Source: Escherichia coli
GTDB lineage: Bacteria > Pseudomonadota > Gammaproteobacteria > Enterobacterales > Enterobacteriaceae
Assembly (NCBI RefSeq): GCF_050920415.1
Contig: NZ_CP169309.1
Direction: 5' to 3' (one strand)
Length of the DNA stretch: 64,000 nt
A program made the position numbers and the translations under genes. The notes beneath the pieces were generated by a model. It ran no database searches, was not told the origin of the DNA, and saw nothing but the letters and a program-made list of their open reading frames with translations. This document shows, piece by piece, positions 34,017 through 34,285 of the stretch. Numbering within the stretch: the first letter of the stretch is position 1; each line of letters starts with the position of its first letter.

Positions 34017-34285
34017 TTGCCTGATGCGACGCTGGCGCGTCTTATCAGGCCTGCGCAGGGGTAGAACCGTAGGTCGAATAAGGCGTTCACGCCGCATCCG
34101 ACAGCCGTTGCCTGATGCGACGCTGGCGCGTCTTATCAGGCCTGTGCAGGAGTAGAACCGTAGGTCGGATAAGGCGTTCACGCCGCATCCGACAGTCGTT
34201 GCCTGATGCGACGCTGGCGCGTCTTATCAGGCCTGTGCAGGAGTAGAACCGTAGGTCGGATAAGGCGTTCACGCCGCATCCGACA
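34017..34285. repeat. Tandem BIME/REP array, three ~91-bp units
   Basis: gcctgatgcgacgctggcgcgtcttatcaggcctg..gtaggtcggataaggcgttcacgccgcatccgaca repeated three times in direct orientation; spurious track ORFs here show repeated peptides. Confidence 0.9.

What the first reader, a model, noticed from the sequence alone, without database searches (positions are those of the whole stretch)
34017..34285. Three-unit tandem BIME array after dedD, and a two-unit array after yfcL
Direct repeats of ~91 bp (34017..34285) and ~120 bp (21064..21245) are composed of inverted REP sequences. They create spurious repeated ORFs in the six-frame track. Copy number of such arrays is often strain-variable, and they are binding sites for gyrase and IHF and substrates for REP-associated transposases.
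Basis: partly seen in the sequence, partly recalled or inferred. Interest (0 to 1): 0.25.

Follow-up and report, generated by a model that had tools for sequence, protein, structure and literature searches.

The report
Ordinary variable-copy BIME-2 repeat arrays
Both features are ordinary tandem arrays of the well-known E. coli REP/BIME-2 palindromic repeat, sitting in the untranslated stretch after dedD and after yfcL, with unit counts that differ between strains.

Summary
A 91-bp unit is repeated 3.1 times at 34017-34300. A second unit is repeated 1.9 times at 21065-21241, with a period of 94 bp, not about 120.

Each unit is a Z2-type REP hairpin, a short linker and an inverted Y-type REP, which is the definition of BIME-2.

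K-12 has one unit at each site. A sample of 59 of 5,426 complete E. coli genomes gave about 68% with 1 unit after dedD, 17% with 3, 12% with 4 and 3% with none. E. albertii and E. whittamii have 2. Two or more units after yfcL were seen in only 14 genomes.

Unit-to-unit junctions match Rfam naRNA4 (the REP325 type), and the number of matches equals units minus one.

The dedD array lies between the stop codon (9-nt gap) and a conserved intrinsic terminator. It is therefore most likely transcribed as a structured 3'UTR that acts as an RNA roadblock or partial terminator. The K-12 counterpart carries published gyrase cleavage sites.

The closest complete genome has no detectable rayT. This is already known biology and of low interest.

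The parts
33347..34009 (+). dedD coding sequence (cell division protein DedD); the stop codon TAA ends at 34009
   Evidence: ORF ending at 34009. Annotated as a 663-nt dedD in matching E. coli records, overlapping the folC end by 11 nt. The start coordinate is inferred from that annotation.
34010..34018 (+). 9-nt spacer (tacggtttt) between the dedD stop and the first REP stem
   Evidence: Read directly from the sequence. The 9-nt length is kept in all occupied E. coli alleles examined.
34017..34107 (+). BIME-2 unit 1 of the dedD array: Z2 REP 34019-34050, inner linker 34051-34072 (ends in GTAG), inverted Y REP 34073-34102, junction linker agccgtt 34103-34109
   Evidence: TRF, inverted repeat I1, decomposition
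34108..34198 (+). BIME-2 unit 2: Z2 REP 34110-34141, inner linker 34142-34163, Y REP 34164-34193, junction linker agtcgtt 34194-34200
   Evidence: (I2, I4). RNA hairpins fold at -21.4 and -19.5 kcal/mol.
34199..34289 (+). BIME-2 unit 3: Z2 REP 34201-34232, inner linker 34233-34254, Y REP 34255-34284
   Evidence: (I3, I5)
34285..34300 (+). Right flank acgcaTTGCCCGATGC. It holds the right-hand copy of the direct repeat TTGCC[T/C]GATGC that brackets the unit. This flank is ancestral and conserved outside Escherichia.
   Evidence: TRF extends to 34300; empty-site allele L005; Citrobacter and Salmonella flanks
34072..34142 (+). naRNA4-type match (Y REP - linker - Z2 REP) across the junction of units 1 and 2
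   Evidence: Rfam RF02564, 75.1 bits against a gathering score of 59.5, full model 1-77
34163..34233 (+). naRNA4-type match across the junction of units 2 and 3
   Evidence: Rfam RF02564, 80.8 bits
34320..34356 (+). Intrinsic terminator of the folC-dedD transcript: a 12-bp stem followed by a T-run
   Evidence: The only terminator-like site in 33900-34500. Hairpin -18 kcal/mol, z-score -6.4. Recognised by a loose pattern in 67 of 110 Enterobacterales spacers.
34375..34397 (+). PurR operator region of the cvpA-purF promoter (CCTACGCAAACGTTTTCTTTTTC), followed by the -10-like TAGAAT. cvpA starts at 34450.
   Evidence: Sequence. The exact 23-mer occurs in at least 120 species genomes. The assignment as the PurR box is from established knowledge of purF regulation and was not tested here.
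20765..21043 (+). yfcL coding sequence; the stop ends at 21043
   Evidence: 92-aa ORF; annotated yfcL in matching records
21065..21158 (+). BIME-2 unit 1 of the yfcL array: Z2-type REP 21067-21099, CTAC + 9 nt + GTAG linker 21100-21116, inverted Y REP 21117-21146, 14-nt junction linker attgagtgcataat 21147-21160
21159..21241 (+). BIME-2 unit 2 of the yfcL array: Z2-type REP 21161-21193, linker 21194-21210, Y REP 21211-21240
21116..21194 (+). naRNA4-type match across the single unit junction of the yfcL array
   Evidence: Rfam RF02564, 81.8 bits
21259..23265 (-). mnmC, convergent with yfcL. Its stop codon lies 18 nt from the last Y REP.
   Evidence: ORF; annotated as a 2007-nt mnmC in K-12 and other records. 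The start coordinate is inferred from that length.

Best explanation
Both features are tandem arrays of BIME-2, the E. coli mosaic repeat made of a Z2-type REP hairpin, a short linker and an inverted Y-type REP. There are three 91-bp units after dedD and two 94-bp units after yfcL, where K-12 has one unit at each place. What is shown: the anatomy, the family assignment, the strain-to-strain variation in whole units, and the position of the dedD array between the stop codon and a conserved intrinsic terminator. What is inferred: the dedD array is transcribed as the 3'UTR of folC-dedD mRNA. There its six stable hairpins (about -20 kcal/mol each) would act locally as roadblocks to 3'-to-5' exonucleases and as leaky, partly Rho-dependent terminators ahead of the PurR-regulated cvpA-purF promoter, as was shown experimentally for the same kind of array, REP325. 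On the DNA, BIME-2 elements are preferred gyrase sites. Units are gained and lost in register by recombination or slippage between the repeated units. The effect at this locus is probably small.
For: Anatomy: TRF periods of 91 and 94; REP hairpins; short inner linkers and no IHF consensus, matching the published BIME-2 definition. The K-12 counterparts of both elements appear in the BIME-2 table of the Topo-Seq study. The dedD-cvpA entry is labelled and has 2 (RifCfx) and 1 (microcin) gyrase cleavage sites. The entry 12,860 bp away has none; I assign it to yfcL-mnmC by that spacing. Rfam naRNA4, built on REP325, matches every unit junction above the gathering score, and the match count equals units minus one in the 0-, 1-, 3- and 4-unit alleles. 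Unit-wise variation: spacers of 167, 258, 440 and 531 bp correspond to 0, 1, 3 and 4 units. In the sample of 59 chromosomes the shares were about 68% with 1 unit, 17% with 3, 12% with 4 and 3% with 0. The yfcL array ranges from 1 to 4 units. The position between the stop codon and the terminator is shown. The array folds at -168.7 kcal/mol, z-score -7.3. The Z2 stem is kept across variants: 97.4% of cells paired against 26-54% with slid partners, and two stem positions show compensatory double changes. Function by analogy: REP325 stabilises the upstream yjdM mRNA and lowers downstream yjdN about 8- to 10-fold.
Against: No expression data exist for this locus, so transcription through the array and any effect on dedD or cvpA are inferred. 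The same preprint reports that REP effects depend on context and that terminal REPs do not generally lengthen mRNA half-life. A strong intrinsic terminator already follows the array, so extra attenuation may be redundant. Alleles with 0 to 4 units all persist in nature, which argues against strong selection on copy number. The covariation signal is small, and palindrome-templated repair could produce it without selection. The copy-number frequencies come from a sample of 59 rows, and only 2 of the 7 presumed 4-unit alleles were verified by sequence.
Confidence: 0.8

Rival explanations
1. The arrays are neutral or selfish repeated DNA with no local function. They sit in a tolerated slot and change copy number by slippage or unequal crossing-over without consequence.
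For: Alleles with 0, 1, 3 and 4 units, truncated units and linker-less units all occur in healthy isolates. An IS621 insertion is tolerated at the yfcL site. Units within an array are only slightly more alike than units between strains (91.0% against 87.1%, p about 0.05). The REP325 preprint stresses weak, context-dependent effects.
Against: A BIME has been kept at this exact slot since before E. coli, E. albertii and E. whittamii diverged. Stems keep pairing, with compensatory changes. The K-12 element is cut by gyrase in vivo. 61 of 67 species carry some structured insert at the same slot, although no control for that figure was run.
Confidence: 0.3
2. The first REP acts as a translational attenuator of DedD. 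Because its stem begins only 9 nt after the stop codon, the terminating ribosome stalls against the hairpin, which leads to mRNA cleavage and lower DedD output.
For: The gap is 9 nt (34010-34018) and has the same length in every occupied allele. [quoted passage not shown] 2015, as reported in PMC12306157). The Z2 hairpin is stable at -21.4 kcal/mol.
Against: The primary paper could not be read, and dedD was not found named in the papers that were read. The effect would come from the first REP alone, so it does not explain the array or its copy number. The yfcL (23 nt) and mnmC (18 nt) gaps fall outside the rule.
Confidence: 0.3
3. The arrays encode naRNA4-like small RNAs that bind HU and bridge cruciforms to condense the nucleoid.
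For: Full-length Rfam naRNA4 matches at 75-82 bits on the strand transcribed from dedD and yfcL. The original REP325/naRNA4 model is described.
Against: The follow-up study, which shares the senior author, found that deleting or overexpressing REP325/naRNA4 does not change nucleoid volume or REP-REP contacts. The Rfam model in effect recognises any Y-linker-Z2 junction, so a match shows the shared repeat, not a shared function. K-12 has no such match at these loci.
Confidence: 0.05
4. The array is a BIME-1/RIP-type IHF-binding element.
Against: No WATCAANNNNTTR site in either array; the four matches in the window lie elsewhere. The inner linkers are 22 and 17 nt, not the long conserved L motif. 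The REP type is z2 rather than z1, and the elements are in tandem copies whereas BIME-1 occurs singly.
Confidence: 0.02
5. The repeated ORFs (43, 43 and 35 aa on +; 74 and 74 aa on -) are real small arginine-rich proteins.
For: They are open and repeated.
Against: Each starts at the ATG inside the REP consensus (cctgATGcgacgc). The unit length of 91 is not divisible by 3. The ORFs are absent or different in the 0- and 1-unit alleles. They have no Pfam match. ORFs appear on both strands, as expected of a GC-rich palindrome.
Confidence: 0.01

Closest known systems
BIME-2 (bacterial interspersed mosaic element, family 2) of E. coli
   Same: Z2 and Y REPs in inverse orientation, a short tail-to-tail linker, short head-to-head junction linkers, tandem copies, extragenic position, and copy number that varies between strains at a given locus. 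The K-12 counterparts are listed as BIME-2 in published tables.
   Different: Nothing essential. In this strain the Z2 REPs of the dedD array carry CTGC or CTGT instead of the canonical CTAC foot. The inner linker of the dedD array (14 nt between the tetranucleotides) is longer than that of the yfcL array (9 nt).
REP325 / naRNA1-6 (yjdM-yjdN BIME-2 array; Rfam RF02564)
   Same: Same architecture, repeated Y-linker-Z2, lying in the 3'UTR of an upstream gene. The junctions match the covariance model over its full length.
   Different: Three or two units rather than six. The junction linker is 7 or 14 nt against 13 nt in the model. The dedD array is followed by a conserved intrinsic terminator and a separately regulated promoter, rather than by a co-transcribed gene. 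No RNA, HU or expression data exist for these loci.
REPtron / RayT (TnpA-REP, K-12 b0228) substrates
   Same: The Y REPs keep the 5' GTAG and the stem mismatch needed for RayT binding. The 91-bp unit boundary (TTGCC^TGATGCG) and the empty-site junction (TTGCC^CGATGC) coincide with the mapped type I cut TGCC^TGAT.
   Different: No rayT in the window, and none detectable in the closest genome. rayT was found in only 3,575 of 5,426 genomes. The right-hand site is CC^C, whereas C^T was found indispensable in vitro. Unit-register recombination or slippage explains the same boundaries.
BIME-1 / RIP (IHF-binding REP pair)
   Same: A pair of inverted REPs, one of them the Y type.
   Different: No L linker, no IHF consensus, z2 instead of z1, and tandem rather than single.

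Membership tests
BIME-2 | Made of one z2-type and one y-type REP in inverse orientation | tested here: met
   Z2: GCCTGATGCGACGC-TGGC-GCGTCTTATCAGGC. Y (inverted): GTCGGATAAGGCG-TTCA-CGCCGCATCCGAC. Present in every unit of both arrays. Definition from PMC3333891.
BIME-2 | Short (S) linker between the two REPs; no long L linker with an IHF site | tested here: met
   Inner linkers are 22 nt (dedD) and 17 nt (yfcL), counting the tetranucleotides. No IHF core consensus in either array.
BIME-2 | Occurs as tandem copies joined by short flanking motifs (s, l or r) | tested here: met
   3.1 copies and 1.9 copies; junction linkers of 7 nt and 14 nt. I did not test which named motif (s, l or r) each linker corresponds to.
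BIME-2 | Copy number at a locus varies between strains | tested here: met
   dedD site: 0, 1, 3 or 4 units in E. coli and 2 in E. albertii and E. whittamii. yfcL site: lone Y REP, then 1, 2 or 4 units.
BIME-2 | Preferential binding and cleavage by DNA gyrase | not testable with these tools
   Literature only. The K-12 (W3110) dedD-cvpA BIME-2 has 2 RifCfx and 1 microcin B17 cleavage sites. The entry I take to be yfcL-mnmC has none.
REP (palindromic unit) | Imperfect palindrome with a conserved GTAG 5' of the stem foot (CTAC on the inverted copy) and a stem mismatch | tested here: inconclusive
   Met for all Y REPs and for both Z2 REPs of the yfcL array. The three Z2 REPs of the dedD array have CTGC, CTGT and CTGT where K-12 has CTAC. 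The stem mismatch and the G-U pair are present.
naRNA4 (Rfam RF02564) | Sequence and structure match to the covariance model above the gathering score | tested here: met
   75.1, 80.8 and 81.8 bits against a gathering score of 59.5, model positions 1-77. The - strand scores 51-56 bits, below the threshold.
naRNA4 (Rfam RF02564) | Exists as a discrete ~77-nt RNA that binds HU and affects the nucleoid | not testable with these tools
   No expression data. The nucleoid role is itself disputed for the founding member.
BIME-1 / RIP | z1 + y REPs separated by the conserved long L linker carrying an IHF site; occurs singly | tested here: not met
   No IHF consensus, short linkers, tandem copies.
REPtron (RayT with flanking BIMEs) | A rayT (tnpA-REP) gene flanked by the REP/BIME copies | tested here: not met
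   Best tblastn hit of K-12 RayT in the window has E = 0.46. The closest genome, NZ_CP169399.1, shows one place only for the chimeric mnmC+rayT query.

The most novel reading that the evidence does not exclude
The short slot between the dedD stop codon and the conserved terminator may be a selected, or mechanistically favoured, landing pad. Escherichia fills it with Z2-Y BIME-2 units. Citrobacter and Salmonella fill it with single or paired REPs of their own types. Pseudocitrobacter, Enterobacter and Lelliottia fill it with tandem arrays of an unrelated GC-rich palindromic family. In Escherichia, the gain, the loss and the precise empty allele all fall at the RayT type I cut sequence TGCC^, which would make this a natural record of RayT-type unit excision and insertion rather than plain slippage.
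Probability: 0.15. Interest if true: 0.35.

Novelty: already known. Interest (0 to 1): 0.1.

Why it matters
It matters little beyond annotation hygiene. The arrays should be masked so that their palindromes are not called as genes. Their copy number is a convenient strain marker, and it is a trap for short-read assembly. The locus could serve as a natural allelic series (0, 1, 3 and 4 units in the same conserved context) for testing whether BIME-2 dosage tunes upstream mRNA stability, read-through into a separately regulated operon, or local gyrase activity. That question is still open for REPs in general.

Tried and rejected
1. A single rigid REP pattern with a fixed 6-nt loop found nothing because the loops are 4-5 nt. 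I replaced it with fuzzy half-site searches.

2. The K-12 RefSeq record as held shows no REP features in this stretch, so I could not read a REP number from the annotation.

3. The Liang, Rudd and Deutscher 2015 paper is not held. Its rule is cited second-hand from PMC12306157.

4. A 61-nt junction query meant to count genomes with two or more yfcL units also matched other BIME-2 junctions at about 90% identity. The tool's '80% coverage' count (3,745) is therefore not usable. I used only the 14 full-length rows at 98% identity or better that lie at the mnmC locus.

5. I tested for concerted evolution of units within arrays. The signal is weak (91.0% against 87.1%, p about 0.05), so I do not lean on it.

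6. I looked for strand asymmetry in hairpin stability. There is none worth noting: -19.5 to -21.9 kcal/mol on either strand.

7. I considered real small proteins and rejected them.

8. I considered BIME-1/IHF and rejected it.

9. The supplements of the RayT paper are not held.

Full report
**Observation.** Tandem Repeats Finder reports an array at 34017-34300 with period 91, 3.1 copies and 95% matches (score 512). It reports a second array at 21065-21241 with period 94, 1.9 copies and 96% matches (score 333). Nothing else in the window scores above 43. The sequence confirms this by eye. The period of the second array is 94 bp, not about 120 bp. The window is Escherichia chromosome in the order aroC ... 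yfcL / mnmC ... accD-folC-dedD-[array]-cvpA-purF. They are by-products: each + strand ORF starts at the ATG inside the REP consensus, 91 is not a multiple of 3, ORFs occur on both strands, and none matches Pfam.

**Anatomy.** Each unit of the dedD array has four parts:
- a 32-nt Z2-type REP (GCCTGATGCGACGC-TGGC-GCGTCTTATCAGGC);
- a 22-nt inner linker ending in GTAG;
- a 30-nt inverted Y-type REP (GTCGGATAAGGCG-TTCA-CGCCGCATCCGAC);
- a 7-nt junction linker (agccgtt or agtcgtt).

The yfcL units have the same two REPs, with a 5-nt loop in the Z REP. Their inner linker is 17 nt (CTAC + 9 nt + GTAG) and their junction linker is 14 nt. Every REP folds as RNA into a hairpin of -19.5 to -21.9 kcal/mol on either strand. 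The whole dedD array folds at -168.7 kcal/mol, z-score -7.3. Across 15 distinct Z2 variants from these loci, 97.4% of stem cells are paired, against 26-54% when partners are slid, and two stem positions show compensatory double changes.

**Family.** Ton-Hoang et al. define BIME-2 as z2 + y REPs with a short S linker, in tandem copies with s, l or r flanks, and with strain-variable copy number. They define BIME-1 as z1 + y with a long L linker that carries the IHF site, occurring singly. Both arrays meet the BIME-2 features. Neither contains an IHF core consensus; the window has four such sites, all elsewhere and no more than chance would give. Independently, the Topo-Seq supplement of Sutormin et al. 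lists the K-12 W3110 dedD-cvpA element as a BIME-2 of 83 bp with 2 (RifCfx) and 1 (microcin B17) gyrase cleavage sites. A BIME-2 of 79 bp lies 12,860 bp away, which is the spacing of the yfcL-mnmC element, and it has none. That study also found BIME-2 enriched in gyrase sites, mostly in Y REPs.

**naRNA4.** Rfam's only matches in the window are three full-length hits to RF02564 (naRNA4, built on the REP325 array), at 34072-34142, 34163-34233 and 21116-21194, all on the + strand at 75-82 bits against a gathering score of 59.5. They span Y REP, junction linker and Z2 REP, so one exists per unit junction. K-12 (one unit at each site) and the empty allele have none, and a 4-unit strain has three. 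REP325 is six Y-l-Z2 repeats after yjdM. The match therefore says that these are the same kind of array. It does not say that they make a functional small RNA.

**Variation between strains.** K-12 has one unit at each site: spacers of 258 and 120 bp, against 440 and 215 bp here. I sampled 59 chromosomes at even rank steps across the 5,426 complete E. coli genomes. For the dedD site this gave:

| Allele | Rows | Share |
|---|---|---|
| one unit (including two variant forms) | 40 | about 68% |
| three units (including one truncated form) | 10 | about 17% |
| array longer than the query | 7 | about 12% |
| no unit | 2 | about 3% |
| two units | 0 | - |

Of the seven long alleles, the two I fetched both have four units. 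Sequences fetched for each class confirm spacers of 167, 235, 258, 420, 440 and 531 bp. Two-unit arrays occur in E. albertii, E. whittamii and a divergent 'E. coli' species representative. The BIME therefore predates E. coli, and the empty allele is most simply a secondary loss.

At the yfcL site nearly all genomes have one unit (51 of 59 rows). Five rows have the short span; the one I fetched is a lone Y REP. Two rows match only on the mnmC side; the one I fetched holds an IS621 insertion. Only 14 genomes carry the specific unit junction, meaning two or more units, and one of them has four.

**How units come and go.** The empty allele reads tacggtcTTGCCCGATGCcgc. In occupied alleles the unit is bracketed by TTGCC[T/C]GATGC. 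The left copy is the start of the Z2 REP. The right copy is flank sequence that is conserved out to Citrobacter and Salmonella. Every unit starts with the same 11-mer, so recombination or slippage in register adds or removes exactly 91 bp. The same boundary is the RayT 'type I' cut TGCC^TGAT mapped in vitro, so RayT-catalysed exchange would also fit. Four points count against relying on RayT here:
- the right-hand site is CC^C, whereas C^T was indispensable in vitro;
- the window's Z2 REPs have lost the CTAC foot;
- the window has no rayT homologue;
- the closest complete genome (NZ_CP169399.1, 99.8-100% identical over the regions tested) shows no megablast-detectable rayT, and K-12-like rayT is present in only 3,575 of 5,426 genomes.

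Units within an array are only slightly more alike than units between strains (91.0% against 87.1%, p about 0.05). The window's units 2 and 3 do share a private linker variant, consistent with a recent local duplication.

**Likely mode of action.** The dedD array lies between the dedD stop (34009) and the only terminator-like hairpin in the region (34320-34349 plus a T-run). That hairpin is conserved across many Enterobacterales and sits just upstream of the conserved PurR operator and the cvpA start. The array is therefore most likely transcribed as the 3'UTR of folC-dedD; this is an inference. For the same kind of array, REP325, Harris et al. showed that it stabilises the upstream mRNA and reduces the downstream gene about 8- to 10-fold through leaky, partly Rho-dependent termination. 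They also found no effect on nucleoid compaction, and that REP effects genome-wide depend on context. I take that local roadblock/attenuator role, together with gyrase binding on the DNA, as the best-supported mechanism, with a probably small effect. The first REP stem starts 9 nt after the dedD stop in every occupied allele. That is within the range of fewer than 16 nt in which REPs were reported to lower translation of the upstream gene (second-hand). This could apply to DedD, but it does not depend on array length. The yfcL array lies between convergent genes, with no intrinsic terminator detected and gaps of 23 and 18 nt to the two stop codons.

**Verdict.** This is a correct identification of a well-known element class at loci already catalogued as BIME-2 in K-12. 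Novelty: already known. Interest: low.

Noticed in passing
L043:1-2032 (Pseudocitrobacter faecalis), L041, L068, L014, L010, L077 and others; window 34010-34319: The slot between the dedD stop and the conserved terminator is filled by different palindromic repeats in different genera. Escherichia has Z2-Y BIME-2 units. Citrobacter and Salmonella have one or two REPs of their own type. Pseudocitrobacter has a 545-bp spacer filled by a tandem array of a GC-rich CCCTCTCCC/GGGAGAGGG family, also seen in Enterobacter and Lelliottia. 61 of 67 species with a recognisable terminator have a structured insert (MFE -15 kcal/mol or lower). No control set was run.
   Followed up: partly
L133:1-955 (E. coli 13E0725, NZ_CP020092.1); equivalent to window 21067-21103: An IS621 (IS110-family) element is inserted at the foot of the Z2 REP of the yfcL-mnmC BIME (…caggccataacagtat|ctacacgtcacacgtag), replacing the yfcL-side match. 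A second sampled genome (NZ_LR778140.1) shows the same split match. This fits REPs being targets of this IS.
   Followed up: partly
window 16936-37213 against L002: The window is only about 95% identical to K-12 over the shared 20 kb (500-bp bins range from 89% to 99.6%). Very few of the 5,426 complete genomes match at 99% or better; the closest is NZ_CP169399.1, strain MFDS1022581. The source is therefore a divergent Escherichia lineage filed as E. coli.
   Followed up: partly
window 24651-24686: A single REP (GTAG + GTCGGATAAGACGCGCCAGCGTCGCATCCGAC) has Y-like feet and a Z2-like centre. Its GTAG begins 6 nt after the fabB stop (24642-24644) and its stem 10 nt after, which is within the reported range of fewer than 16 nt for translational effects.
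   Followed up: no
window 55693-55740: Degenerate REP remnants (gcctgatgtcgcatccggcgcttattgcctgatgcgacgc) that no longer form a full REP pair.
   Followed up: no
L003:1403-1933 and L008:1050-1489 (dedD-cvpA spacers of strains JA0265 and LS4): Some Z2 REPs have the central CTGG replaced by its reverse complement CCAG (GACGCTGGCGCGTC against GACGCCAGCGCGTC). This looks like inversion of the hairpin tip, as expected from intrastrand template switching in palindromes.
   Followed up: no
L006:1050-1284 (E. coli MEC2025-PR): An allele in which the Z and Y REPs abut with no inner linker (…CTTATCTGGT|TACAGATAAGG…) and with altered feet, giving a 235-bp spacer.
   Followed up: no
window 34375-34397: The 23-mer CCTACGCAAACGTTTTCTTTTTC, covering the presumed PurR operator of cvpA-purF, is exactly conserved in at least 120 species-representative genomes from Escherichia to Yersinia, Erwinia and Serratia.
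   Followed up: no
E. coli genome collection, dedD-cvpA spacer: No two-unit allele appeared among 59 sampled E. coli chromosomes, although 1-, 3- and 4-unit alleles are common and two units occur in E. albertii and E. whittamii. This may be sampling or lineage structure.
   Followed up: no
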